A stretch of DNA of 7,397 nucleotides from a virus. How positions within the stretch are numbered: position 1 is the first letter of the stretch; every line of letters starts with the position of its first letter. The notes below the pieces were generated by a model. That model had not been told where the DNA came from, made no database searches, and saw nothing but the letters and a program-made list of their open reading frames with translations. This document shows positions 1 through 7,397 of the stretch, piece after piece. Made by a program: the position numbers and the translations under genes. The stretch lies in UHGV virus genome UHGV-0204592. One strand, 5' to 3'.

Positions 1-261
1 ATGGTATATCATGTTTTAGGTATTGAGAGGTTCGAAGGCATTGCTAAAAAGACAGGTAAGCCTTATGATTTTACCCGTTTTTATTCTGTTCCTTCCCGTC
101 AGCCGGATAAGGTCCGTGGTGTCAGGGTGGAAAATGTGGATGTTTATAACGGTCAGTATGCGCCGGATATTTCCGATATCCATCCTGAGGACTATGTGGA
201 TTTCAGTTTTAACCGCAGGGGTTATGTTGATGCTGTCCAGATAGTTGATTCCCCTAATTAG
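1..261 (+). CDS. Gene-V-like ssDNA-binding protein (86 aa)
   Basis: 86 aa, the same size as M13 gVp (87 aa). From memory, it shares motifs with M13 gVp: 'TGKPYDF' versus 'QGKPYSL', and 'NGQYAPDI' versus 'GQPAYAPGL'. There is no upstream sequence in a linear reading, but the window's last bases (GTGAGGA at 7385-7391) would be an ideal SD 6 nt before this ATG if the sequence is circular. The stop is TAG at 259-261. Confidence 0.7.
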   Translation: MVYHVLGIERFEGIAKKTGKPYDFTRFYSVPSRQPDKVRGVRVENVDVYNGQYAPDISDIHPEDYVDFSFNRRGYVDAVQIVDSPN

Positions 262-274
262 TGTATGCACGATT

Positions 275-306
275 CCCCGGCCCCAGGTATTATCTAGGGG
301 CCGGGG
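275..306. other. GC-rich hairpin (10-bp perfect stem CCCCGGCCCC / GGGGCCGGGG, 12-nt loop) in a 173-nt GC-rich non-coding island
   Basis: Read directly from the sequence. No U-tract follows on either strand, so it is not a typical terminator. An overlapping alternative hairpin GGGGA-TACTCCT-TCCCC spans 303-319. Confidence 0.6.
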
Positions 307-434
307 ATACTCCTTCCCCTTGATTGCTGATTGGTGCCAGGTTCCTGGCGGTCGCGGTTCATCATGTCCCGGATGCACCTACGGTGTCGCGGATATGGGA
401 AATGTGTTACAGATTATAAGAAAGTAGTGGTTGG

Positions 435-656: not shown

Positions 657-717
657 CAGATGTACTATCCACTTAATAAAATAAAGTAACTATTCCTAAT
701 AAGTCTAGTTTAACGAA

Positions 718-725
718 TAGTTAGT
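718..725 (+). repeat. TAGTTAGT motif, copy 1 (upstream of the pIII-like gene)
   Basis: An exact 8-mer. The context is AATAGTTAGTTAC. Confidence 0.6.
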
Positions 726-783
726 TACAAATTAAGCATTGATTAGTACATCTTTTAACAATTTGTTAGGGGGTGTATTTTTT

Positions 784-2055
784 ATGTTTAAGCGTGTCGT
801 AACAATCATTTTAGTATCTCTCATATCATTGACTTGTGCTTTTGGTTCGTTCGCGTCTGAAATTGCTACATCCTCTAGTGCCCAATTAAATATTGCCACA
901 TCTAGTAATGCAATGCCTTCAGATGATTTTGATACGTTGGATGCTCCTGTACTCATGTCCTCTGGTGATTTACCATCTGTATCTAATACTGTTTATCGGT
1001 CTTATATGAAATTAGGCTGTTTTTATTATAATATGTCTGGTGTGACAAAAACTGCTGTGGTCGGCTTTGATTCTGGTGGTTATGCTTCTTTGCCTTTGCC
1101 TTCGGATGCTGCTAGCGTTCGTAAAATTTTTATTATTCTTCCTAGAGAATCCTTGCCCTCTCCAGGACGTTATAATGTATCCATCCGTTTTGCTTCTAAT
1201 ACTGGTGTTACTTATAAGGATTGCTTATTATATACAGAAAAGCAAAGTGTAAATACATCTAATGAATCAACGACGGATTATATATCCTATTCCCAATTAT
1301 CTGGCGATTGGTATGCTACTACTGTTGTTGATTTGAATAGTGTAAGTAAATTACAATTTGAGCTGGCTCTGCAATCTGTTTCAACGTCGAATTTGCCTTA
1401 TGGTGGTTATGTTAATGTTTGTTTTAAGAAAACCAATAGTCAGGCTGACATAGTTACGGCTGGTGGTGTTTATACGTCTGATGATGCGACAAAGGATATT
1501 GCTAATAATTCCGCTCAGCAGGTCGAACAAGGTGAAACTATCATTGAATTAATCAAAAATACGATACAGACGATTAGTTCACAATTGACGGCTTTCTGGA
1601 ATCAGTTGGCTGGGGAATTTACCAATCTTTATGCAAAGATGACCCAGCAACATTCTGAACAGTTACAGGCTGACCGGGATAATACGGATGATATCATAGC
1701 TGCTGAGGAATCCAATACCACTAACATCATTAACAATAACAATGCGAATACGGATAAGTTATCGAATGGTTATGATAATTCTGGTATGAATTCCGATAAT
1801 GACCGATTGAATGGTTCACTTAAGGAATATGACCAGGCCGAAGATAACCTGATGGAGGATGTTAATACAGGGATTGGGAACATAGATTTTGATTTCAGTT
1901 TTGACAGTACATTATCCGTCATATCAACTGTTTCCGATTTCCTGCAAGGTATTTATGAACGTTCCGGTGGGTTCCAGGTGGTCATAAATGTATGTCTTAT
2001 CCTCTCCCTCGCTTCCTGCGCCGTTGGTCTGTACCGTTTAAAGGGGGGTGGGTAA
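784..2055 (+). CDS. pIII-like minor coat / adsorption protein (423 aa), secreted with a C-terminal membrane anchor
   Basis: The ORF track starts at 739, but the first ATG with an SD (AGGGGGTG at 768-775, 8 nt upstream) is 784. It has an N-terminal signal peptide (MFKRVVTIILVSLISLTCAFGSFA|SE). A Ser/Thr-rich N-terminal domain is followed by an Asn-rich low-complexity linker (NIINNNNANTDKLSNGYDNSGMNSDND). The C-terminal hydrophobic anchor is VVINVCLILSLASCAVGLY followed by RLKGGG. Its size and architecture match M13 pIII (424 aa). Confidence 0.65.
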   Translation: MFKRVVTIILVSLISLTCAFGSFASEIATSSSAQLNIATSSNAMPSDDFDTLDAPVLMSSGDLPSVSNTVYRSYMKLGCFYYNMSGVTKTAVVGFDSGGYASLPLPSDAASVRKIFIILPRESLPSPGRYNVSIRFASNTGVTYKDCLLYTEKQSVNTSNESTTDYISYSQLSGDWYATTVVDLNSVSKLQFELALQSVSTSNLPYGGYVNVCFKKTNSQADIVTAGGVYTSDDATKDIANNSAQQVEQGETIIELIKNTIQTISSQLTAFWNQLAGEFTNLYAKMTQQHSEQLQADRDNTDDIIAAEESNTTNIINNNNANTDKLSNGYDNSGMNSDNDRLNGSLKEYDQAEDNLMEDVNTGIGNIDFDFSFDSTLSVISTVSDFLQGIYERSGGFQVVINVCLILSLASCAVGLYRLKGGG

Positions 2056-2274
2056 ATGTTTAAGTTCTTTGAATCCATTGCCAATATCTTTAAGACGGTT
2101 GTTGATTTTGTCATTGACCTATTCCAGATGCTTCTTGGCCTGGTGGAACTTATTGTAAAAGGGTTTGGTTTTCTGATGCGTGTCATCAATGAACTTCCCC
2201 CGTTCCTGATACCATTTGCGCTTGGGTTTATCTGCCTGGCTATCCTGTTCCAGATTCTTAATAAAGGGAGTTGA
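2056..2274 (+). CDS. Small hydrophobic virion/membrane protein (72 aa, 2 predicted TM); pVI-like candidate
   Basis: The ATG directly abuts the TAA of the upstream gene (gggTAAATG), and a G-rich SD (AAGGGGGGTGGG) lies upstream. The protein is very hydrophobic with two predicted TM helices. Confidence 0.6.
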   Translation: MFKFFESIANIFKTVVDFVIDLFQMLLGLVELIVKGFGFLMRVINELPPFLIPFALGFICLAILFQILNKGS

Positions 2275-2278
2275 TTGT

Positions 2279-2440
2279 ATGTTAGGTTCATTCCTTCAAT
2301 TTGTTCTTGATGTATTCGGTGGTATGATTGGGCTTCTTCAATATACGGAACTTGGCGGTTTTACCTTGGAGGATGTCCTTGTTGCCATCCTTATTGTTAC
2401 GATTGTTGCCCGTACTGTGATTGTAAAGTTTGGAGAATGA
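2279..2440 (+). CDS. Small hydrophobic protein (53 aa)
   Basis: The track ORF 2216-2440 is shortened to the ATG at 2279, which has the SD AGGGAG (2265-2270) 8 nt upstream. The sequence is MLGSFLQFVLDVFGGMIGLLQY...IVTIVARTVIVKFGE, giving 1-2 TM helices. Confidence 0.55.
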   Translation: MLGSFLQFVLDVFGGMIGLLQYTELGGFTLEDVLVAILIVTIVARTVIVKFGE

Positions 2441-2441
2441 T

Positions 2442-3275
2442 ATGGTTCTTTTGATAGTGGTATTCATGCTTCTGTTCTCCTTTCCTTCCTATGCTGTTCC
2501 GGTTGCGTCTCCCTCTGAGGTAGGGAAGGTGTTGGAAGATGGTGATGTTTTGGAAAATGATGAAATTGTGGATGATGATGATATTTCTTCAGTCTTTGAT
2601 GACCGGCCCGATTTTTATTATGAATCCATGGAGGACATGAACGATGATGAGGTTCTTAAACGTATACTTGCCGAAGTTGTATCTATTAGCGATTCTATGG
2701 GTGGCCCTGTTGCTACTCCTTCAGATGCTACCAGGCCTGACAGTGATGCCTTGGAGGATGAGGAAATTTCTCCTGACGGTGAGGAGGTTGATACAGCTTC
2801 TTACACTCTGGATGCCGATTCCTTTGCACAGGGCTCTGAGGATACTTACGTTAATGTGTTGCGTTTTGATATTACTTTTAACAACCATGATTATATTTTA
2901 CTGATTCCGCCGGAATACGTGGATAATCTTTATATAGATGGTAATGACCGTCTTTGGAACATGTCTACCAGTAATATTACAGGCCGTATCGTGGATGCTG
3001 GATTTAATCCTTTGGTGACAGAGGGCAGGCTGATGTATCTCTCTCCCTGTCTTGGCAATATCTTTTCCACGGTGAATGAATACGGCAGTCCCAATTATAT
3101 GCGTACTTATTATTGGAGTTCCGGCCGTCTTACTTATTCCACATCCTATGGTGTGATTACAGTAAATAAATACCATAATCCGTTTTATGTATCCCAGACC
3201 ATGGATTATATCATGTTGTTTGTTGTGACAGGAGGTGTTTTATTCATATGTTTGAACAATTACAAACGTTATTAG
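2442..3275 (+). CDS. Secreted acidic protein with a C-terminal TM anchor (277 aa); second minor coat/adsorption candidate
   Basis: ATG at 2442 with SD GGAG (2432-2435) 6 nt upstream. The track start at 2430 is a TTG. Signal peptide MVLLIVVFMLLFSFPSYA|VP. There is a strongly acidic Asp/Glu-rich region (DEIVDDDDISSVFDD...EDEEISPDGEE). The C-terminal TM is IMLFVVTGGVLFICL followed by NNYKRY. Confidence 0.6.
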   Translation: MVLLIVVFMLLFSFPSYAVPVASPSEVGKVLEDGDVLENDEIVDDDDISSVFDDRPDFYYESMEDMNDDEVLKRILAEVVSISDSMGGPVATPSDATRPDSDALEDEEISPDGEEVDTASYTLDADSFAQGSEDTYVNVLRFDITFNNHDYILLIPPEYVDNLYIDGNDRLWNMSTSNITGRIVDAGFNPLVTEGRLMYLSPCLGNIFSTVNEYGSPNYMRTYYWSSGRLTYSTSYGVITVNKYHNPFYVSQTMDYIMLFVVTGGVLFICLNNYKRY

Positions 3276-3394
3276 GTATTACAGTTCCGGTACAGTTTGA
3301 ACCTGTCCTGATTACCATTACTGCCGTCTTGTTCCTCTGGCTTCTCTCCTTTTTTGGCGAGTTGCTTAAACTTATCATATTACGTTGGGGTTGA
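3248..3394 (+). CDS. Small hydrophobic protein (48 aa); pVII/pIX-like candidate
   Basis: Hand-translated as MFEQLQTLLGITVPVQFEPVLITITAVLFLWLLSFFGELLKLIILRWG*. It is below the 60-aa track cutoff. AGGAGG at 3230-3235 lies 12 nt upstream, which is longish. It overlaps the 3' end of the preceding gene in another frame. It has a single TM helix and a basic C-terminus. Confidence 0.4.
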   Translation: MFEQLQTLLGITVPVQFEPVLITITAVLFLWLLSFFGELLKLIILRWG

Positions 3395-3558
3395 TGTCCA
3401 TGTGGGAGGATTTCTCGATTATTTTTAATGATGGGATTCTGGTCAATGCCAAGGTCCTGATTGATTTCCTTTTAGGTGATGGTATTTATTTAGGTGCTGT
3501 TGTTATTCTCCTGCCCCTGCTTGGCAGGTTAATAAAGTTTTTTAAAAATTTATTTTAG
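3394..3558 (+). CDS. Small coat-like protein (54 aa; alternative start at 3400 gives 52 aa)
   Basis: Hand-translated as MSMWEDFSIIFNDGILVNAKVLIDFLLGDGIYLGAVVILLPLLGRLIKFFKNLF*. The start overlaps the upstream stop (TGATG coupling). It has an acidic N-terminus, one TM helix and a basic C-terminus (RLIKFFKNLF), which is the classic inovirus coat-protein layout without a signal peptide, as in Pf3. It is below the track cutoff. Confidence 0.45.
   Translation: MSMWEDFSIIFNDGILVNAKVLIDFLLGDGIYLGAVVILLPLLGRLIKFFKNLF
3521..3549 (+). promoter_or_regulatory. Candidate promoter for the major coat gene: -35 TTGGCA (3521-3526), 17 nt, -10 AAAAAT (3544-3549)
   Basis: An AT-rich tract with an A/T palindrome TTTTTTAAAAA immediately upstream of the strong coat RBS. 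The hexamers are each a 4/6 match. Confidence 0.3.
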
Positions 3559-3569
3559 GAGGTGTTTTT

Positions 3570-3860
3570 ATGTTGCAGAGAGTAAGAAATAGGTTCCAGA
3601 AGTTCATGTATGGCCTTTTTGCCGTACCGTTCCTTATGGGTATGACAGCTTTTCCGGCCTATGCGTCTGAATCTGGTGCAGGTTCTGCTTCCCTTACGGA
3701 TACACTCAGTATCTTCACGGAAGTGTTCGCCTGGTTCCTCAAGGAAGGTGGTAACCTGCTGGCCTGGATGCTTGACAAGCCCATCATCCTTCTGTCGCTG
3801 GCTGTTTTCTTTGTCGGCGCTGTGATTGGTGTCCTTGCCCGTATCTATAGCAGTTTTTAG
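3570..3860 (+). CDS. Major coat protein precursor (pVIII-like, 96 aa; about 64 aa mature)
   Basis: It has the best RBS in the window: AGGAGG at 3557-3562, 7 nt before the ATG. It has a long signal peptide ending AFPAYA|SESGAG. The mature part has an acidic, amphipathic N-terminus, a TM helix (IILLSLAVFFVGAVIGVLA) and a short basic tail (RIYSSF). An AT-rich promoter-like region lies upstream. Confidence 0.65.
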   Translation: MLQRVRNRFQKFMYGLFAVPFLMGMTAFPAYASESGAGSASLTDTLSIFTEVFAWFLKEGGNLLAWMLDKPIILLSLAVFFVGAVIGVLARIYSSF

Positions 3861-3881
3861 TGACTTATCGTTTCTTTGTCA

Positions 3882-3905
3882 GGCCGGGTTTCGCCCGGTC
3901 TGATA
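3882..3905 (+). terminator. Weak hairpin (GGCCGGG-TTTCG-CCCGGTC) after the major coat gene; possible attenuator
   Basis: A 6-7 bp GC stem 22 nt after the coat stop codon, followed by CTGATATTT, which is a weak U-tract. This is analogous to the terminator after gene VIII in Ff phages. Confidence 0.3.
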
Positions 3906-3919
3906 TTTGGAGGTATGTT

Positions 3920-4078
3920 ATGTTTGGGATTCTTCCGGTCTTTTGGGATTTCTTCTTCTCCCCTCTCCTGGCCTTTGATATAGATAGTCCTATTTTTGCG
4001 CCTATTGCTTTATGTCTGGTTGTCCTTTGTGTATTCCGCTTTGTCAGGAGGATATTTTCATGGTGTTTTTCGTTTTGA
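3920..4078 (+). CDS. Small hydrophobic protein (52 aa)
   Basis: The track ORF 3860-4078 begins at a GTG. The first ATG with an SD (GGAGG at 3909-3913, 6 nt upstream) is at 3920. The sequence is MFGILPVFWDFFFSPLLAFDIDSPIFAPIALCLVVLCVFRFVRRIFSWCFSF. The 3' end overlaps the ATPase gene start. Confidence 0.45.
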   Translation: MFGILPVFWDFFFSPLLAFDIDSPIFAPIALCLVVLCVFRFVRRIFSWCFSF

Positions 4079-4824
4079 TTATCCTGTTTTTTATTCTTTT
4101 CATTGGGTACCATTTAATTCGCTATCGTAATCCCTATAAATTAATCATGGTCATAGGTAAAAAAGGCTCTGGTAAAACCACGTTAATGGTCAAACTATCG
4201 TTGAAGTATAACAAGAGGAAACGGCCTGTGTTCTGCAATGCTCCTGACATTCCTGGTACATATTACTTTGAGCCTGAAATGTTGGGTTCTGTCGGTTTCC
4301 CGGAAAACGCAATCATTATGGTTGACGAGGCTTCCAGGTATTGGGATAACCGTGATTTTAAGAATTTTCAGAAGAAGACCTTTGACTATTTCCGTTTCCA
4401 GCGGAAATACCGTCATACGGTTTATCTATTTTCCCAAAGTTTTGATGTTGATAAGAAACTTAGGGACCTTACGGACCGAATGTATTTAGCGACTAATGTC
4501 TTTAATGCATTTTCAGTTGCCAGGGGTATTGCCAAGGCTCCCACGATTACCCATGCGGATTCTAACCAGGCTGGTGAATCTAAACTTGTGGATGATATAC
4601 ATTTTGAGAGCCTGCTTCTGTTCTGGGCCGGCTCTGTCCGTATTACTTATCTGCCAAAGTATATAAAATACTTTAATTCGTTTGACCCTCCTTATCTTCC
4701 AGAAGGTCAATTTACATATACGCCATTCATCAAGCGGAAACGAAGGGCCCCCGCCTGTGGCGGGCCCGTAGTTGAAGCGATAGAGGATAAAATGGATGAT
4801 GACTTCGGACCCCCGTCTAATTAG
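4060..4824 (+). CDS. Zot/pI-like morphogenesis ATPase (254 aa) with an N-terminal TM anchor
   Basis: Walker A motif MVIGKKGSGKTTL and Walker B motif AIIMVDEAS. The N-terminal region resembles the Zot/pI N-domain, for example M13 pI MAVYFVTGKLGSGKT. The start was chosen at ATG 4060 (SD AGGAGGA at 4046-4052, 7 nt upstream) rather than the track's ATG at 4012, which has no SD. An alternative start at 4147 would begin exactly at 'MVIGKKGSGKT' but has no SD. There is no C-terminal TM or periplasmic domain. Confidence 0.7.
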   Translation: MVFFVLIILFFILFIGYHLIRYRNPYKLIMVIGKKGSGKTTLMVKLSLKYNKRKRPVFCNAPDIPGTYYFEPEMLGSVGFPENAIIMVDEASRYWDNRDFKNFQKKTFDYFRFQRKYRHTVYLFSQSFDVDKKLRDLTDRMYLATNVFNAFSVARGIAKAPTITHADSNQAGESKLVDDIHFESLLLFWAGSVRITYLPKYIKYFNSFDPPYLPEGQFTYTPFIKRKRRAPACGGPVVEAIEDKMDDDFGPPSN

Positions 4825-4835
4825 GTCCGAAGTCC
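4801..4835. other. Perfect 11-bp hairpin GACTTCGGACC / GGTCCGAAGTC enclosing the ATPase stop codon in its 13-nt loop
   Basis: Read directly from the sequence. It is followed by a second 7-bp hairpin ACTTTGT / ACAAAGT (4850-4873), then TTT, then the rep RBS. Confidence 0.6.
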
Positions 4836-4891
4836 TGAAAAATTCTTTCACTTTGTAGTATTCTTCACAAAGTTTTAGGAGGTATTCCCTT

Positions 4892-5812
4892 ATGCTTTAT
4901 TATTACAATCCATTGATTGAGGACGGTATATTTTACTCTTGTGATTCCCTTCGGTTCTCTTTTGTTTTCCCAGATGCGGACACAGTAGAAGATTTCCTTA
5001 CCTTCCTCTCCCGCCTTCCCGGCTCCACCCATTACCAGTCCTTAAAGGATTTTGATTACAGATACCTTTATGTGTTTGGTATTAAAGGATTGAGTTTCAG
5101 TATCGGCCTTTGTATGAATGGGATTAAAAAGGAAACCGTCTTACAAGGCTTTTTGGATTTTAACCCTAATAAGATACTCGGTGATATATCCTATGGCAAT
5201 GGATTTATGGGTACGGTTCATTCCCCGTTTAGTAATGAGGAATCTTCCTACAAGGATTTAAGGTGTCAGATAAAAGAGATTCTGATGGAGGTTATGGAAA
5301 ACCTTTGGTCATGTACGGAAGAAATAAGAATCAAACGTTGGGATTTAGCTGTGGATGTTCCGTATGGTCGCGATTGTGTCCAGCTTATCAAGGATAACAG
5401 GAAATACAGTCAGTTTTATAAATCGGCTCAGGATTTTACAGAGTATTTAGGGTCTATGTCAAGTCCAGGACGTGTGAAGATTTACAATAAACAGATTGAG
5501 GCGGAATTGGACTATCCCCTCACCCGGATTGAAGTCACATTGGATAGCTTGGATTTCATTGACTGTTGCCGATGCTGGCCCAATGTCTATACCCGTAAGG
5601 TAATCGACCTGGCAGAAACCAAGGTCATTGTGCAGTTGCTTTCGGAGCAACCAGTAGATAGGATGGATTATTATCTCCGTCAGATGTCGGCCCCTACGAA
5701 ACGTAGATACAAGGCCCTGCTCCTGGAACGTCCCTTTGAGGTTACAGGTCCTGTCTTTAACAAGTTGCGGAATCAGTTATTGAGATATCAGGAGGGGGAT
5801 TTTTATGAATAG
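4892..5812 (+). CDS. Rolling-circle replication initiator, Rep_trans (pT181 RepC / CTXphi RstA) family, 306 aa
   Basis: SD AGGAGG at 4877-4882. From memory, the segment 'GRVKIYNKQIEAELDYPLTRIEVTLD' aligns with the pT181-family active-site region '...RIYNKKQERKD...WRVEIELKRD', whose Tyr is the nicking residue. Here that residue is Tyr198, codon TAC at 5483-5485. The upstream motif 'KRWDLAVDVPYG' resembles the conserved acidic metal-binding motif of the family. Confidence 0.7.
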   Translation: MLYYYNPLIEDGIFYSCDSLRFSFVFPDADTVEDFLTFLSRLPGSTHYQSLKDFDYRYLYVFGIKGLSFSIGLCMNGIKKETVLQGFLDFNPNKILGDISYGNGFMGTVHSPFSNEESSYKDLRCQIKEILMEVMENLWSCTEEIRIKRWDLAVDVPYGRDCVQLIKDNRKYSQFYKSAQDFTEYLGSMSSPGRVKIYNKQIEAELDYPLTRIEVTLDSLDFIDCCRCWPNVYTRKVIDLAETKVIVQLLSEQPVDRMDYYLRQMSAPTKRRYKALLLERPFEVTGPVFNKLRNQLLRYQEGDFYE

Positions 5813-5984
5813 ACCAGTTGGGAAAATCAAGGTCAGTGCATATCTTACTAAGAAGCAGTATAACCAGCTTTGCCGATACATGGAATATTGTGGGTGCTAT
5901 TCCACCTCTGCGGAACTGGTTACCAGGTTTGTATCGATTGGCCTGGCTGATGCCGTCAAGCGTGGGGTAATTGATGATGATTAG
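5805..5984 (+). CDS. Small ribbon-helix-helix-like protein (59 aa), translationally coupled to rep
   Basis: Hand-translated as MNRPVGKIKVSAYLTKKQYNQLCRYMEYCGCYSTSAELVTRFVSIGLADAVKRGVIDDD*. The ATG overlaps the rep stop, and SD GGAGGGGG lies 6-8 nt upstream. The predicted beta-strand (KIKVSAYL) followed by two helices fits an RHH/CopG-like fold. It is below the track cutoff. Confidence 0.4.
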   Translation: MNRPVGKIKVSAYLTKKQYNQLCRYMEYCGCYSTSAELVTRFVSIGLADAVKRGVIDDD

Positions 5985-6060
5985 TAACACATGGTTGCCC
6001 TGGCTCCAGCTGTGATGGGAAACAGCCTGCAGGAAAATTGTGTTACATAGATAAAGATAT

Positions 6061-6092
6061 CCCCGGCATAGTGCCGGGGATTTTGTTGTTAT
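6061..6092. terminator. Bidirectional rho-independent terminator between convergent transcription units
   Basis: Perfect 8-bp GC stem CCCCGGCA / TGCCGGGG with a 3-nt loop (TAG) at 6061-6079. It is followed on the + strand by ATTTTGTTGTT and on the - strand by a TTTAT-rich run. It sits exactly between the end of the + operon (5984) and the end of the - strand 77-aa gene (6089). Confidence 0.75.
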
Positions 6093-6322
6093 TCTACCTT
6101 TGGTAAAATTCCTTTAGCCTCCATTACTTCTACCAGTGTGTCCATTCCGTCATTTATGTGATGAATTTCTTTTCTGATGGAACGTTCTGAGGTTTTCATG
6201 TCCAGTCTTAGTGTATCCATCTGGATTTTTAGTTCTGATATTTGTAAGTCTATATCCTCTAGTTTGTTTGTAATCGGTGCTAATAGTGTTTTCATTGTTT
6301 CTAACATCTCTTTATCTGTCAT
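6089..6322 (-). CDS. Small coiled-coil protein (77 aa), function unknown
   Basis: Strong SD on the minus strand (AAGGAGGA, 8 nt before the ATG). The sequence is MTDKEMLETMKTLLAPITNKLEDIDLQISELKIQMDTLRLDMKTSERSIRKEIHHINDGMDTLVEVMEAKGILPKVE, predicted all-helical with a heptad-like pattern. It is co-oriented with, and downstream of, the repressor gene. Confidence 0.6.
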   Translation of the reverse strand: MTDKEMLETMKTLLAPITNKLEDIDLQISELKIQMDTLRLDMKTSERSIRKEIHHINDGMDTLVEVMEAKGILPKVE

Positions 6323-6429
6323 TTTGTTGTCCTCCTTGATATTCTACTTACATCATATCATTAAAATCCATTCTCGTCCATCCTGGTGCGTTACAGGGGG
6401 TTATTTATCTTTTGTATTGATGTAATCAC

Positions 6430-6774
6430 TTAGCCGTATAATCTTTTCTCTTCCGTGTCATTATGTTGTGTTTCTCCTTCAAGTAAGTTCATATAGGCTT
6501 CTAACAGTGCTTTTTTATTGTTATCGTATTTTCTATATTTGGATATGATTTCTTTTTCTTTTGGTGTGTATTCCGGTTTTTTTAGTTCAAATAATTCATC
6601 CGATGATATACCAATATATTGTAATACTAATACAAATTTATCCATTGCTGGTTTTGTTCCGTTTTTCCAGCTTGATAATGTTGTTTGTCCTATTCCTGTT
6701 GCTTTGCTTACTTGATATGCGGATATTCCTTTTTCTTCCATTATTTTGAAAAGTTTTGATATATAATTTTCCAT
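6430..6774 (-). CDS. XRE-family (Cro/CI-type) HTH transcriptional repressor, 114 aa
   Basis: Canonical HTH_XRE signature ISAYQVSKATGIGQTTLSSWKNGTKP. The start was set at ATG 6772-6774 (SD GGAG 6 nt upstream on the minus strand). The track's extra 4 residues begin at a TTG. It is divergent from the main rightward promoter. Confidence 0.75.
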   Translation of the reverse strand: MENYISKLFKIMEEKGISAYQVSKATGIGQTTLSSWKNGTKPAMDKFVLVLQYIGISSDELFELKKPEYTPKEKEIISKYRKYDNNKKALLEAYMNLLEGETQHNDTEEKRLYG

Positions 6775-6802
6775 GTTTTGCTCCAAAATATTGAATTAAC
6801 TA

Positions 6803-6831
6803 TTGACTGCTACAAAATATTGTAGTATACT
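6803..6831 (+). promoter_or_regulatory. Sigma-70-type promoter: -35 TTGACT (6803-6808), 17-nt spacer, -10 TATACT (6826-6831)
   Basis: A 5/6 match in each hexamer with ideal spacing. It drives the 6939 ORF and probably the whole rightward unit around the circle. The -10 lies inside the palindrome AGTATACT. Confidence 0.6.
6810..6825. promoter_or_regulatory. Candidate operator: perfect inverted repeat CTACAA-AATA-TTGTAG inside the promoter spacer
   Basis: 6-bp arms with a 4-bp centre, lying between the -35 and -10 elements. This is the classic placement for a dimeric HTH repressor site. Confidence 0.5.
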
Positions 6832-6863
6832 ATTAGTGTAAGGATAAGTAATGATTAAGCGCT

Positions 6864-6871
6864 TAGTTAGT
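6864..6871 (+). repeat. TAGTTAGT motif, copy 2 (repressor/early-promoter intergenic)
   Basis: Exact 8-mer. Confidence 0.6.
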
Positions 6872-6890
6872 ATTTATTTTACCACATTTT

Positions 6891-6898
6891 TAGTTAGT
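6891..6898 (+). repeat. TAGTTAGT motif, copy 3
   Basis: Exact 8-mer, 27 nt after copy 2. Confidence 0.6.
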
Positions 6899-6912
6899 CT
6901 ACAAGGTTCATT

Positions 6913-6920
6913 TAGTTAGT
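6913..6920 (+). repeat. TAGTTAGT motif, copy 4 (26 nt before ATG 6939)
   Basis: Exact 8-mer, 22 nt after copy 3. Confidence 0.6.
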
Positions 6921-6938
6921 TAATTGGGAGGGTTTTAC

Positions 6939-7133
6939 ATGATGGATAAAAAGCGTGTTAGAGAGACGTTAAATAGTCTTGTTGATTCCTGGTGTACAGA
7001 AAAACCTATGTATAGAGTAGATTTATCATGGATTCGTGGACAGATATTTTTTGCTTATTTGATTGAGGCTATTACCCTATCTGAGAAAGAAGAAATGCTT
7101 CAGCGTGTGTCCGAAGCAAAGGAGGGTTGTTAA
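6939..7133 (+). CDS. Hypothetical early protein (64 aa)
   Basis: ATG 6939 with SD GGGAGGG (6926-6932) 6 nt upstream. The track start at 6924 is a TTG. It is the first gene after the repressor-controlled promoter. No recognisable motif. Confidence 0.5.
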   Translation: MMDKKRVRETLNSLVDSWCTEKPMYRVDLSWIRGQIFFAYLIEAITLSEKEEMLQRVSEAKEGC

Positions 7134-7313
7134 ATGCGTAGACTTTCCAAGGCTCTCTTAGAGCAGGAACAAAATGAAACCAGCGTGGCAATCTGTCGTG
7201 CCATGGCGTTGCATGACCAGTGCCGTGTTGATGTACTACAGTATCATTTTTCCCGTCTTGAAGCCATCTTGTCTTACATAAATGAGGATTCAGACGATAT
7301 TCCGCCTGTTTAG
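7134..7313 (+). CDS. Hypothetical early protein (59 aa)
   Basis: Hand-translated as MRRLSKALLEQEQNETSVAICRAMALHDQCRVDVLQYHFSRLEAILSYINEDSDDIPPV*. The ATG immediately follows the TAA of the upstream ORF, and SD AGGAGGG lies 7 nt upstream. It is below the track cutoff. Confidence 0.45.
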   Translation: MRRLSKALLEQEQNETSVAICRAMALHDQCRVDVLQYHFSRLEAILSYINEDSDDIPPV

Positions 7314-7316
7314 GTA

Positions 7317-7358
7317 GCCCCCAGGGTATCCCTCTGTGGCTCTGCCCTGGTCTATAAT
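7317..7358 (+). promoter_or_regulatory. GC-rich dyad element (CCAGGG...CCCTGG) followed by a perfect -10 TATAAT (7353-7358)
   Basis: CCAGGG at 7321-7326 pairs with CCCTGG at 7345-7350. A consensus TATAAT lies 3 nt downstream with no good -35. It lies upstream of the window-end RBS. It shares the motif GCCCC(C)AGG(G)TAT with position 280-290. Confidence 0.35.
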
Positions 7359-7367
7359 ATAACCAAT

Positions 7368-7375
7368 TAGTTAGT
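7368..7375 (+). repeat. TAGTTAGT motif, copy 5 (30 nt before the ATG at position 1 if circular)
   Basis: Exact 8-mer. A further TTAGTT occupies the last 6 nt of the window. Confidence 0.6.
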
Positions 7376-7397
7376 TTAAAGAAAGTGAGGATTAGTT

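What the first reader, a model, noticed from the sequence alone, without database searches (positions are those of the whole stretch)
718..7375. The 8-mer TAGTTAGT occurs five times, always on the + strand and only in intergenic DNA upstream of operon starts
Copies lie at 718, 6864, 6891, 6913 and 7368, with a partial TTAGTT at 7392-7397. A given 8-mer is expected about 0.1 times in 7.4 kb. Three copies are spaced 27 and 22 nt apart between the repressor gene and the first early ORF. One lies 30 nt before the (circular) gV start and one 66 nt before the pIII-like start. A tandem direct repeat (TAGT-TAGT) suits binding by an RHH protein such as the small ORF at 5805-5984, by one of the unknown 64- or 59-aa early proteins, or by another regulator. 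It could also be a phage-specific promoter element. It is not explained by any annotated feature.
Basis: seen in the sequence. Interest (0 to 1): 0.65.

Follow-up and report, generated by a model that had tools for sequence, protein, structure and literature searches.

The report
Conserved TTAGTTAGT boxes in inovirus leader
The repeated 8-mer is real: four of its five copies belong to a strongly conserved regulatory leader and ribosome-binding region in a family of filamentous prophages of gut Clostridia, most likely a translational control site, and the fifth copy is part of the phage's chromosomal attachment site.

Summary
TAGTTAGT occurs 5 times, all on the + strand and all non-coding (0.27 expected; 0 of 200 shuffles reach 5).

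The copies are not one class.
- **Copies 6864, 6891 and 6913.** They lie downstream of a strong sigma-70 promoter (6803-6831), so they sit in the 5' leader of the early operon. This ~95-nt leader is 81-88% identical among relatives whose repressors, operators and first ORFs differ. Neighbouring genes show only 40-62% identity at third codon positions.
- **Copy 7368.** It lies 7-10 nt 5' of the Shine-Dalgarno of the gV/RstB-like gene. It is conserved there in most relatives, in a context that mirrors copy 3.
- **Copy 718.** It is the outer end of a dif-like attP arm and is not conserved as an 8-mer.

Best reading (~0.35): a box of UUNN units with a 4-nt period, read in mRNA or + ssDNA. It would act as a translational operator for a phage single-strand-binding factor, probably gV itself, as with T4 gp32 and Ff gVp.

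Main rival (~0.25): dsDNA operators over a conserved leftward promoter inside the leader, which faces the early promoter as in P2/186.

A promoter-element role is not supported. The RHH-operator idea is unsupported rather than excluded. Overall: a new member of a known kind, of moderate interest.

The parts
6863..6871 (+). Box 1, TTAGTTAGT. It forms the 3' arm of the predicted 5'-terminal leader hairpin and overlaps the palindrome TAAGCGCTTA (6856-6865). On the other strand it covers about +1 of the leftward promoter.
   Evidence: Exact in 13 of 16 distinct leaders.
6890..6898 (+). Box 2, TTAGTTAGT. On the other strand it fills the 17-nt spacer of the leftward promoter.
   Evidence: Exact in 13 of 16 leaders; the other 3 have TTAGTTGGT.
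6912..6923 (+). Box 3, TTAGTTAGTTAA. It continues as UUNN units up to the Shine-Dalgarno of the first early cistron.
   Evidence: 13 of 16 leaders have TTAGTTAG here; 3 have TTACTTAGT.
7367..7376 (+). Box 4, TTAGTTAGTT, lying 8-10 nt 5' of the Shine-Dalgarno of the gV/RstB-like gene.
   Evidence: TTAGTTAGTT is found at this place in most relatives. It shares a 10-12-mer with the box 3 region.
718..725 (+). Fifth copy, which is not the same element. TAGTT(A) is the outer end of the right arm of the dif-like attP, and the remaining bases are not conserved.
688..722 (.). dif-like attP: AACTA-TTCCTAATA-AGTCTAG-TTTAACGAA-TAGTT. Relatives have TTCGCGAAA as the inner left arm.
   Evidence: The site is duplicated at the prophage ends in L013, L010 and L212. 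A XerS-like recombinase gene lies next to it in L004-L007.
6803..6831 (+). Early promoter, TTGACT-17-TATACT.
   Evidence: 10 of 12 consensus matches.
6810..6825 (.). Probable operator of the HTH repressor: palindrome CTACAAAATATTGTAG in the promoter spacer. A second CAAAATATTG lies at 6784-6793.
   Evidence: The region differs completely in relatives that carry other repressors.
6838..6938 (+). Conserved early-operon leader, running from about +1 to the start codon at 6939.
   Evidence: Alignment A5 has 90% mean column identity. The leader is 81-88% identical between relatives, against 40-62% at third codon positions of the flanking genes.
6842..6882 (+). Predicted 5'-terminal hairpin of the leader RNA, with 17 pairs including three G.U pairs.
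   Evidence: 97.8% of cells are paired, but there is almost no covariation and the energy z-score is about 0.
6876..6904 (-). Leftward promoter-like site facing the early promoter: TTGTAG-17-TGgTAAAAT. It would transcribe the repressor operon.
   Evidence: The same site reads TTGTGA-17-TAAAAT with an upstream TG in relatives. Analogous sites occur in other leader types.
6926..6941 (+). Shine-Dalgarno GGGAGGG and start codon of the first early cistron (64 aa).
7321..7350 (+). RNA hairpin between the 59-aa early gene and gV.
   Evidence: compensatory A-U to G-C and G-C to A-U changes, with G.U pairs that work only in the + sense.
7385..7397 (+). Shine-Dalgarno (GTGAGG) and spacer of gV. The ATG is window position 1 (circular genome).
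1..261 (+). gV/RstB-like gene for a putative ssDNA-binding protein, the candidate reader of the boxes.
   Evidence: PHROG 929 'RstB', E 1.9e-5, covering residues 1-34 only. Its position and size are as in other inoviruses.
6430..6774 (-). XRE/Cro-CI-type HTH repressor.
   Evidence: HTH_3, E 1.6e-9.

Best explanation
TAGTTAGT is the core of a conserved box, TTAGTTAGT(T). It is better described as a short run of UUNN units with a 4-nt period.

Four copies lie on the transcribed strand. Three are in the 5' leader of the early operon, and one lies just 5' of the Shine-Dalgarno of the gene for the gV/RstB-like single-strand-binding protein.

I propose that the box is read in single-stranded form, in the mRNA and in the identical + strand ssDNA. 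It would act as a translational operator. As the phage single-strand-binding factor accumulates (most likely gV itself), it would bind the boxes cooperatively. Binding would start next to a 5' hairpin and spread over the adjacent ribosome-binding sites, turning down translation of the first early cistron and of gV. T4 gp32 does this on its own mRNA, and Ff gVp does it on gene II mRNA.

**Shown here:** existence, enrichment, strand, position relative to promoter and Shine-Dalgarno, conservation, and purifying selection.

**Inferred:** that the box is read as RNA, which protein reads it, and that the effect is repression.

The fifth copy (718) is a separate thing: the end of a dif-like attP arm.
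For: 1. **Same strand, all transcribed.** All four conserved copies are on the sense strand of one rightward transcription unit, downstream of the only strong promoter. Across 27 related loci the strand count is 93 to 0.
2. **Matching positions next to two ribosome-binding sites.** Boxes 3 and 4 occupy the same place, 5-10 nt 5' of a Shine-Dalgarno. Their contexts are about 82% identical (TTAGTTAGTTGA..AAGGAGG..TTTTATTATG against TTAGTTAGTTGA..AAGAGAGG..TTTTGATTATG). In the window this TIR pair shares the longest block that does not include the Shine-Dalgarno itself.
3. **The box changes by lineage in both TIRs together.** The forms are TTAGTTAGTTGA (window type), TTAGTTGATT (L001 and L004), TTGTTTGATT (L010) and TTGATTGAGGA (L212). 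This fits a phage-encoded reader. gV is only 27-32% identical between these lineages. It fits a fixed host factor less well.
4. **Pattern of variation.** Variants keep T1 T2 A3 T5 T6 T9 and vary at positions 4, 7 and 8. The tract continues as UUNN units up to the Shine-Dalgarno. Ff gVp saturates ssDNA at 3-5 nt per monomer (PMC9231167).
5. **Architecture resembles the gp32 operator.** That operator has a structured 5' element followed by more than 40 nt of unstructured RNA with UUAAA/UAAA repeats running into the RBS (PMC535899). Here there is a 5' hairpin followed by a leader with no significant fold (z = -0.02). Before gV there is a covariation-supported hairpin followed by box 4.
6. **Purifying selection.** The non-coding leader is 81-88% identical, against 57-81% for neighbouring genes and 40-62% at their third codon positions.
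7. **Precedent.** Ff gVp represses gene II translation at an mRNA operator (PMC5405960).
Against: - There are no binding or expression data of any kind.
- Boxes 1 and 2 lie 40-70 nt from the Shine-Dalgarno.
- Boxes 1-3 coincide with the +1 region, the spacer and about -47 of a conserved leftward promoter. A dsDNA-binding regulator would explain that directly.
- L004-type phages have degenerate boxes although their gV is about 92% identical to gV of L059-type phages, which have perfect boxes. Box sequence therefore does not track gV closely within the group.
- The whole leader is conserved (non-box columns 0.92, box columns 0.96), so the box is not singled out by conservation.
- Predicted accessibility of the boxes is no higher than background.
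- The identification of gV as an SSB rests on a weak partial PHROG hit plus synteny.
- In Ff the target of gVp is the Rep mRNA. Here the Rep TIR has no box.
Confidence: 0.35

Rival explanations
1. The boxes are double-stranded DNA operators for a small phage regulator. The leader holds a leftward promoter that faces the early promoter and would drive the repressor operon. A Cro/Cox/Apl-like early protein would bind the three direct repeats over it and shut off repressor synthesis, as in the P2 and 186 switches.
For: - A leftward TTGTGA-17-TAAAAT site with an upstream TG is called in relatives. It is present as TTGTAG-17-TGgTAAAAT in the window.
- The variable leader column is exactly the 'n' of the TGn extension, and the variable -35 positions are the last two.
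- Other leader types have the same face-to-face layout, with start points about 30 bp apart. L013 has TTTACA-17-TATAAT facing TTTACT-18-TGcTATAAT. L010 has TGCTATAAT and L212 has TGTTATAAT.
- Boxes 1, 2 and 3 fall on about +1, the spacer and about -47 of this promoter.
- There is no room for a repressor promoter between 6775 and 6803.
- Cox and Apl bind direct repeats and also bind next to attP (my own knowledge). The window has a copy next to attP.
Against: - Box 4 has no conserved promoter on either strand to regulate.
- The att copy is not conserved.
- The 27-nt and 22-nt spacings do not share one helical phase.
- A tandem 4-bp unit is too short for two dsDNA-binding subunits.
- The first early protein is a three-helix bundle with no HTH-type match.
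- The first ORF after the leader differs among phages that share the boxes.
- The co-variation of the box between the two TIRs is not explained.
Confidence: 0.25
2. The boxes are a factor-independent or host-read RNA element. They could be a U-rich standby site or translational enhancer just 5' of strong Shine-Dalgarno sequences. Alternatively they could be a processing and stability determinant cut by a host endoribonuclease (RNase Y type, which cuts after G in A/U-rich single strands) that sets the ratio of early to gV expression.
For: - Boxes 3 and 4 abut Shine-Dalgarno sequences.
- More distant relatives have U-rich tracts in the same place, for example TTTTTTTGTTTTTAGGAGG in L012 and TTTTTTTGTTTAGGAGG in L213.
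- Both contexts follow an RNA hairpin.
- Ff mRNAs are known to be processed into a cascade of species (my own knowledge).
Against: - Exact 9-10-mers are conserved at four places, two of them far from any Shine-Dalgarno. That is more specific than general U-richness or the loose preference of RNase Y.
- The box differs between lineages that infect the same host genus, Enterocloster.
Confidence: 0.17
3. The boxes are iterons: binding sites for the Rep_trans-like initiator at or near the replication origin. Rep would also autoregulate early transcription through them.
For: - The copies are direct repeats in one orientation with about 22-bp spacing.
- The boxes occur only in phages whose Rep is 77-100% identical, and are absent where Rep is 42-48% identical.
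- Rep has the RVKIYNK tyrosine motif typical of pT181-type initiators (plus my own knowledge).
Against: - The best origin candidate is a GC-rich hairpin with a conserved GGTATT loop at 275-306. It lies about 300 nt from box 4 and more than 700 nt from boxes 1-3.
- L007 has a swapped Rep module (77% identity) but identical boxes.
- Iterons would not need to sit next to Shine-Dalgarno sequences.
Confidence: 0.07
4. Antisense seed. The leftward transcript would begin with the complement of box 1 (ACUAACUAA...). It could pair in trans with boxes 2-4 and mask the two ribosome-binding regions.
For: The predicted leftward start falls inside box 1. All other boxes are identical to box 1 and are in the sense orientation.
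Against: - A 9-nt A/U-rich duplex is weak.
- The start point is only predicted.
- No terminator defines a small RNA.
- The palindrome near the 5' end pairs less well in the antisense orientation, because G.U pairs become C-A mismatches.
Confidence: 0.05
5. The copies are a promoter element, a chance match or a compositional artefact. Under this reading the 8-mer is part of a phage-specific promoter, or a low-complexity or slippage product without function that is carried along in a recently exchanged module.
For: - (TTAG)n microsatellites and unrelated TTAGTTAGT repeats are common in other viral contigs.
- Unit number varies: one TTAG unit before gV in L004 against two elsewhere.
- The right att arm looks like a GTTA duplication.
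Against: - Enrichment is far above chance, even within non-coding DNA alone.
- Four positions are conserved, while synonymous sites of neighbouring genes are near saturation.
- The copies lie downstream of the promoter, not in it, and have no partner element.
- The motif is under-represented in bacterial DNA.
Confidence: 0.06

Closest known systems
Autogenous translational operator of T4 gene 32 (gp32)
   Same: It has a structured element at the 5' side. This is followed by an unstructured A/U-rich stretch with several short repeats (UUAAA/UAAA there, UUAG-UUAG here) that runs into the ribosome-binding site of an ssDNA-binding protein gene (PMC535899).
   Different: Here the largest cluster (three boxes) is on the leader of the early operon, not on the SSB gene, which has only one box. 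The 5' elements are simple hairpins, not a pseudoknot. The protein is a small inovirus gV/RstB-like protein. Binding is untested.
Ff gene V protein and the gene II/X mRNA operator
   Same: An inovirus SSB doubles as a translational repressor through a leader sequence in mRNA (PMC5405960). Its site size of about 4 nt per monomer matches the 4-nt period of the box (PMC9231167).
   Different: The Ff operator is a single G-rich sequence on the Rep (gII) mRNA. Here the Rep TIR has no box, and the boxes are U/A-rich and repeated.
Cox boxes (P2) and Apl sites (186) in face-to-face promoter switches
   Same: Two promoters face each other with start points about 30 bp apart. Immunity-repressor operators lie on the lytic promoter. 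Direct repeats lie in one orientation over the lysogenic promoter, and one copy lies beside attP.
   Different: No Cox/Apl-like protein was found. The spacing is not in helical phase. A fourth conserved copy sits at a ribosome-binding site with no promoter. The att copy is not conserved. The phage has no integrase or excisionase and appears to use a host Xer.
UAG/GAG-repeat RNA sites of HutP and TRAP
   Same: These are short trinucleotide-containing repeats on the sense strand of a 5' leader, read by an oligomeric RNA-binding protein (my own knowledge).
   Different: Those sites have 3-11 triplets with 2-4 nt spacers in one cluster and act on a terminator/antiterminator. Here there are pairs of UUAG units in four separate places, and no terminator follows the leader.
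dif-like attP of Xer-exploiting elements (IMEX; CTXphi, VGJphi) and difSL/XerS
   Same: This applies to copy 718 only. The site has inverted arms around a short central region and is duplicated at prophage ends. There is no phage integrase. A single XerS-like recombinase gene lies next to the host site, as xerS lies next to difSL (PMC5357621).
   Different: The hosts are Lachnospiraceae. The recombinase scores below the XerS curated cut-off (213 against 267 bits). The site sequence differs from difSL.

Membership tests
Translational operator of a phage ssDNA-binding protein (gp32 / gVp type) | Lies on the sense strand within the 5' UTR or TIR of the regulated mRNA. | tested here: met
   All four conserved boxes lie downstream of the early promoter and upstream of start codons on the + strand. 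Boxes 3 and 4 lie 5-10 nt from a Shine-Dalgarno. Transcript ends are inferred from consensus promoters, not measured.
Translational operator of a phage ssDNA-binding protein (gp32 / gVp type) | A structured nucleation element followed by an unstructured repeat-bearing tract that reaches the RBS. | tested here: inconclusive
   The hairpin before gV has compensatory changes. The leader hairpin is kept in 97.8% of cells but has almost no covariation. The leader as a whole has z = -0.02. Accessibility of the boxes was not distinctive.
Translational operator of a phage ssDNA-binding protein (gp32 / gVp type) | The phage encodes the ssDNA-binding protein that reads it. | tested here: inconclusive
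   ORF 1-261 matches PHROG 929 (RstB) at E 1.9e-5 over residues 1-34 only. There is no Pfam or NCBIfam hit. Gene order fits gV.
Translational operator of a phage ssDNA-binding protein (gp32 / gVp type) | The protein binds the site specifically and represses translation. | not testable with these tools
   This needs binding assays and reporter fusions.
Cox/Apl-type operators in a face-to-face promoter switch | Two convergent promoters with overlapping transcripts between the repressor and early genes. | tested here: met
   Met by consensus matches only. The early promoter scores 10/12. The leftward site with a TG extension is found in relatives and in the window. L013 has the same layout.
Cox/Apl-type operators in a face-to-face promoter switch | A small HTH or winged-helix early protein that binds the repeats. 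| tested here: not met
   The 64-aa early protein model (pLDDT 89.7) is a three-helix bundle. Its best, non-significant matches are ribosomal protein bS20 and designed bundles. There are no family hits for the 64-aa and 59-aa proteins. The 59-aa protein was not modelled.
Cox/Apl-type operators in a face-to-face promoter switch | The same boxes are conserved beside the attP core. | tested here: not met
   After CGAATAGTT(A) the sequence differs among relatives: TAGTTAAT, TAGTTAAG, TAGTTGAC, TAGTTTAG and others.
Cox/Apl-type operators in a face-to-face promoter switch | Repeats in helical phase. | tested here: not met
   Centre-to-centre distances are 27 (26 in L090) and 22 (23 in L059 and L063).
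Iterons of a rolling-circle origin | Direct repeats adjacent to the nick-site hairpin and specific to the cognate Rep. | tested here: not met
   The nearest origin-like GC hairpin (275-306) is at least 300 nt away. L007 carries a Rep of 77% identity with identical boxes. The nick site itself is unknown.
Promoter element (sigma-70 or phage-specific) | A fixed position upstream of a transcription start, with a partner element at a constant distance. | tested here: not met
   The boxes are at about +26, +53 and +75 of the early promoter. Sequences 15-20 nt upstream of the boxes share no element.
   The ORF 5805-5984 model (pLDDT 77) has an extended N-terminus followed by helices 16-26 and 35-52, which is compatible with RHH. 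There is no fold match (best E 3.2) and no Pfam or PDB sequence hit. The gene is the last one of the Rep operon and is far from the boxes.
dif-like attP of a Xer-exploiting element (copy 718 only) | Inverted arms around a short central region, duplicated at prophage ends, with no phage integrase and a host Xer recombinase. | tested here: met
   The 23-bp repeat GTCTAGTTTAACGAATAGTTAGT flanks prophage L013. Similar repeats flank L010. The window has no integrase. A XerS-like gene lies beside the site (213 bits against a cut-off of 267). Recombination itself was not tested.

The most novel reading that the evidence does not exclude
The leader may be a dual-coded switch module that moves between phages. 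Read rightward, its 9-mers would be RNA operators next to the ribosome-binding sites of the early cistron and of gV. Read leftward, the same bases would form the start region, spacer and upstream part of the repressor promoter. That promoter's transcript would begin with the complement of the box (ACUAACUAA) and could pair in trans with the other boxes. Immunity, early translation and SSB level would then be tied together by one short repeated word. The module is shared by phages that carry at least six unrelated repressor/operator sets.
Probability: 0.08. Interest if true: 0.7.

Novelty: new member of a known kind. Interest (0 to 1): 0.4.

Why it matters
These are uncharacterised filamentous prophages of common human-gut Clostridia (Enterocloster, Clostridium porci and other Lachnospiraceae). 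Almost nothing is known about how Gram-positive inoviruses control lysogeny, replication and assembly.

The finding points to a compact, strongly selected control region that is easy to test. It is a ~95-nt leader shared by phages with different immunity repressors. It carries a repeated word that recurs at the ribosome-binding site of the single-strand-binding protein gene.

If the SSB reads that word, the gp32/gVp type of translational feedback extends to this group. The leader would then be a handle for predicting or engineering prophage activity.

If instead a DNA-binding protein reads it over the leftward promoter, these phages have a P2/186-like face-to-face switch.

In either case the result is a modest advance, not a new principle.

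Tried and rejected
- **Whole-window megablast against GenBank phages:** no match.
- **Rep search in IMG/VR:** no relatives.
- **Rfam at E <= 1 on the whole window:** nothing.
- **Pattern TTAGTTAGT-N10-30-TTAGTTAGT in IMG/VR:** more than 120 hits, all (TTAG)n microsatellites or unrelated repeats, and no related phage. This scan was uninformative.
- **Full-text search for the 9-mer:** only primers and unrelated sequences.
- **Pfam, PHROGs, NCBIfam and PDB profile searches of the 64-, 59-, 59(RHH)- and 73-aa proteins:** no usable hits.
- **Leader as a structured RNA or ssDNA origin:** rejected. Energy z-scores were about 0 for both RNA and DNA folds.
- **Box accessibility by partition function:** low everywhere and inconsistent.
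- **LytTR-type response-regulator site (9-bp direct repeats, 21-22 bp apart):** considered because of the 22-nt spacing. Dropped because the pair lies inside a transcribed leader with no downstream promoter. This idea comes from memory and was not tested.
- **Complementarity of UAGUUAGU to 16S rRNA around position 505-512 (GCUAACUA in Firmicutes):** recalled from memory only. No host rRNA was available, and that region is buried in the 30S subunit, so I did not pursue it.
- **Three-frame stop signal (TAG, TAG, TAA/TGA in three frames at box 3):** true for some copies only, so it is not the general explanation.
- **Box 5 as an arm-type recombinase site related to the others:** rejected, because only the 5-6 outer bases are shared with the att arm.

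Full report
**What the window is.**
The 7,397-base window is a complete, circularly permuted genome of an inovirus-like phage. Its genes are:
- a Zot-type assembly ATPase (4075-4824; Pfam Zot, E 1e-6);
- a 306-aa replication initiator with an RVKIYNK motif (4892-5812). Its relatives are labelled 'replication initiation protein [Inoviridae sp.]' and occur in Clostridia;
- an XRE-type HTH repressor on the minus strand (6430-6774);
- an 86-aa protein at 1-261 with a weak PHROG match to RstB, the ssDNA-binding protein of CTXphi.

Relative L007 shows that the window's end and start are contiguous (...gaggattagttATGGTATATCAT). Related prophages lie in Clostridium porci, Enterocloster lavalensis and other Lachnospiraceae. 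Homologues of the small proteins occur in E. bolteae, E. clostridioformis, E. citroniae and E. aldensis.

**Checking the observation.**
TAGTTAGT occurs exactly five times, at 718, 6864, 6891, 6913 and 7368, always on the + strand. Dinucleotide shuffles give 0.27 copies on average, and none of 200 reaches five.

The word contains TAG in two frames, so its absence from + strand genes is partly trivial. I therefore simulated only the 908 nt of non-coding sequence. This gave a mean of 0.08, P(>=3) = 1.5e-4, and no run with five copies in 20,000.

Four copies extend to TTAGTTAGT. One-mismatch variants are not enriched. The word is under-represented, not common, in 358 kb of bacterial contigs around distant relatives (6 against 15.5 expected).

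**Anatomy around the three clustered copies.**
A strong sigma-70-type promoter, TTGACT-17-TATACT, lies at 6803-6831. Its spacer holds the palindrome CTACAAAATATTGTAG, and CAAAATATTG recurs 30 bp upstream. These are the natural operators of the HTH repressor.

The three copies lie 26, 53 and 75 nt downstream of the expected start. They are therefore inside the 5' leader of the early operon, not in front of its promoter.

**Relatives.**
I fetched DNA around Rep homologues. I also scanned public contigs for a leader-specific pattern. This gave 28 loci with the same leader, 16-18 of them distinct in sequence.

Upstream of the -10 element these loci carry at least six unrelated operator sets and different repressor genes. 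Downstream they have different first ORFs. In between, the ~95-nt leader has 90% mean column identity.

Between the window and seven relatives the leader is 81-88% identical. The flanking genes are 57-81% identical at the nucleotide level and only 40-62% at third codon positions. The non-coding leader is therefore under purifying selection.

Each of the three boxes is exact in 13 of 16 distinct leaders. The variants are TTAGTTAAT, TTATTTGGT, TTAGTTGGT and TTACTTAGT. They keep T1, T2, A3, T5, T6 and T9 and change only positions 4, 7 and 8. The rest of the leader is almost as conserved (0.92 against 0.96). The 8-mer is thus one feature of a larger element.

**The copy before gV.**
In most relatives TTAGTTAGTT stands at the same place, 7-10 nt 5' of the gV Shine-Dalgarno. 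Its context closely resembles that of box 3:
- box 3: TTAGTTAGTTGA-TTAAGGAGGGTTTTATTATG
- box 4: TTAGTTAGTTGA-GAAAGAGAGGTTTTGATTATG

Among all 105 pairs of translation initiation regions in the window, this pair shares the longest block that does not include the Shine-Dalgarno itself.

The shared block changes with lineage, and it changes in both regions together:
- TTAGTTGATT in L001 and L004;
- TTGTTTGATT in L010;
- TTGATTGAGGA in L212.

Written in register, the tracts are runs of UUNN units that end at the Shine-Dalgarno. The window reads TTAG TTAG TTAA TTGG GAGG. L212 reads TTGT TTGT TTGA TTGA GGAA.

Twenty nucleotides upstream of box 4 is a hairpin (7321-7350). It has compensatory A-U/G-C exchanges and G.U pairs that work only in the + sense RNA. 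No promoter is conserved before gV, so gV is most likely read from the early transcript.

**The copy at 718 is something else.**
Window 688-722 is an inverted-repeat site with a short central region. In prophages L013, L010 and L212 the same site flanks the element. In L013 the 23-bp repeat GTCTAGTTTAACGAATAGTTAGT sits at both ends.

The window has no integrase. In L004-L007 a 350-354-aa recombinase gene lies next to the site, and its best match is XerS (E 4e-63, below the curated cut-off). This is how xerS is linked to difSL in streptococci (PMC5357621).

The phage therefore appears to be a Xer-exploiting element. TAGTT(A) at 718 is the outer end of the right arm. After it the sequence differs among relatives. 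I treat this copy as a lineage-specific or chance extension. One chance copy in 7.4 kb is not unlikely.

**A second reading of the leader.**
On the minus strand the leader carries a promoter-like site, TTGTGA-17-TAAAAT preceded by TG. The scan tool calls it in relatives. It is present as TTGTAG-17-TGgTAAAAT at 6904-6876 in the window.

The one freely variable column in that part of the alignment is the 'n' of TGn, and the variable -35 positions are the last two. Two other leader types in more distant relatives have the same layout:
- L013 has TTTACA-17-TATAAT facing TTTACT-18-TGcTATAAT.
- L010 and L212 have TGCTATAAT and TGTTATAAT on the minus strand.

Start points would be about 30 bp apart, as in the P2 and 186 switches. 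Boxes 1, 2 and 3 fall on about +1, the spacer and about -47 of this promoter. This is the basis of the main rival explanation.

**Weighing the mechanisms.**
I favour an RNA-level (or single-strand) reading at about 0.35, for these reasons:
- All four conserved copies are in the sense orientation of one transcription unit (93 to 0 across relatives).
- Two copies abut ribosome-binding sites in matching contexts.
- The box co-varies between those two sites by lineage.
- The 4-nt period suits a single-strand-binding protein of small site size better than a duplex-binding dimer. Ff gVp saturates ssDNA at 3-5 nt per monomer (PMC9231167).
- The architecture of a hairpin, then an unstructured repeat-bearing tract, then the RBS is that of the T4 gene 32 operator (PMC535899).
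- Ff gVp is a known translational repressor (PMC5405960).

The evidence against is real:
- There are no binding data.
- Boxes 1 and 2 are far from the RBS.
- Boxes are degenerate in L004-type phages although gV is nearly unchanged.
- Accessibility predictions are uninformative.
- The SSB assignment is weak.

The dsDNA-operator model (about 0.25) explains boxes 1-3 well. It does not explain box 4, the spacing or the co-variation, and no HTH-like early protein was found.

The remaining probability is divided as follows:
- a host-read enhancer or processing site: about 0.17;
- Rep iterons: about 0.07;
- an antisense seed: about 0.05;
- no function or a promoter element: about 0.06.

- The ORF at 5805-5984 gives a model with an extended N-terminus and two helices (pLDDT 77). 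This is compatible with ribbon-helix-helix. It has no fold, Pfam or PDB match. It also ends the Rep operon, far from the boxes.
- The 64-aa early protein is a confident three-helix bundle (pLDDT 89.7). Its best matches are non-significant: ribosomal protein bS20 and designed bundles.
- The 59-aa early protein has relatives in phages that lack the boxes.

None of the three can be tied to the motif.

**Verdict.**
The interpretation needs three corrections:
1. The copies lie in a transcribed leader and a translation initiation region, not in promoters.
2. One copy belongs to the attachment site.
3. The motif is part of a larger conserved switch module.

It is a new member of a known kind, namely phage regulatory repeats, probably a translational operator. 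Interest is moderate, mainly because it gives a defined and testable entry point into the regulation of Gram-positive gut inoviruses.

Noticed in passing
window 688-722; L013 3197-3233 and 11296-11323; L010 ~3818-3855 and ~12055-12100; L004 12422-13486: The phage has no integrase. It carries a dif-like inverted-repeat site that is duplicated at the ends of related prophages, and a XerS-like single recombinase gene lies next to the host site. This looks like a Xer-exploiting (IMEX) inovirus in Lachnospiraceae. A search of the held papers for 'inovirus' with 'XerS' found none.
   Followed up: partly
window 6876-6904 (- strand); L013 9590-9619; L010 ~10788-10796; L212 ~8990-8998: An extended -10 promoter on the minus strand of the early leader faces the early promoter, with start points about 30 bp apart. 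It is present in three unrelated leader types, giving a P2/186-like face-to-face layout.
   Followed up: partly
window 7321-7350: The hairpin between the 59-aa early gene and gV has compensatory base changes and G.U pairs in relatives, but no U-run follows it. It is a conserved RNA structure of unknown role (attenuator, stabiliser or nucleation site).
   Followed up: partly
window 262-434, especially 275-306: This is a GC-rich, ORF-free region with a strong hairpin (CCCCGGCCCC-loop-GGGGCCGGGG). The loop GGTATT and the downstream TCCCCTTGATT are also seen in L010. It is a likely site for the replication origin and packaging signal.
   Followed up: no
L007 5627-6716 versus window 4892-5984: L007 is 98-100% identical to the window in all proteins except Rep (77%) and the RHH-like ORF (70%). 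This is a clean swap of the replication module between otherwise identical phages.
   Followed up: no
L059 6493-6732 and homologues; window 7063-7161: In many relatives a 79-aa paralogue of the 64-aa early protein ends ...ECADFPRLS and overlaps the start of the 59-aa gene by 26 nt in another frame. The window keeps only the short form.
   Followed up: no
L001 6764-7390; L004 9860-10450: Some relatives carry a DUF2726 (nuclease-related) gene in the leftward operon between the repressor and the 77-88-aa coiled-coil gene. It is possibly a defence or exclusion cargo gene.
   Followed up: no
L059 5539-5650 (- strand): A small hydrophobic ORF (MENIINGIIGLTTNKAFWCCGAIALTMFLFRKFKD) lies after the leftward terminator in eight relatives. 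It contains the only coding occurrence of the motif's complement (Leu-Thr-Thr).
   Followed up: partly
L007 313-1311: A Viral_Rep (CRESS-type) gene lies directly left of the window-like prophage, at the same att site. This suggests tandem integration of different elements at the dif-like site.
   Followed up: no
window 4836-4891: The Rep ribosome-binding site is preceded by an inverted repeat, CTTTGT-N10-ACAAAG. It shares CACAA(A)G with the leader but has no TTAGTTAGT box.
   Followed up: no
IMG/VR loci L093-L211: (TTAG)n microsatellites and unrelated iteron-like repeats such as TTAGTTAGTGCTTACTAAC are frequent in other viral contigs. Pattern searches for this word alone are therefore not specific.
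   Followed up: partly
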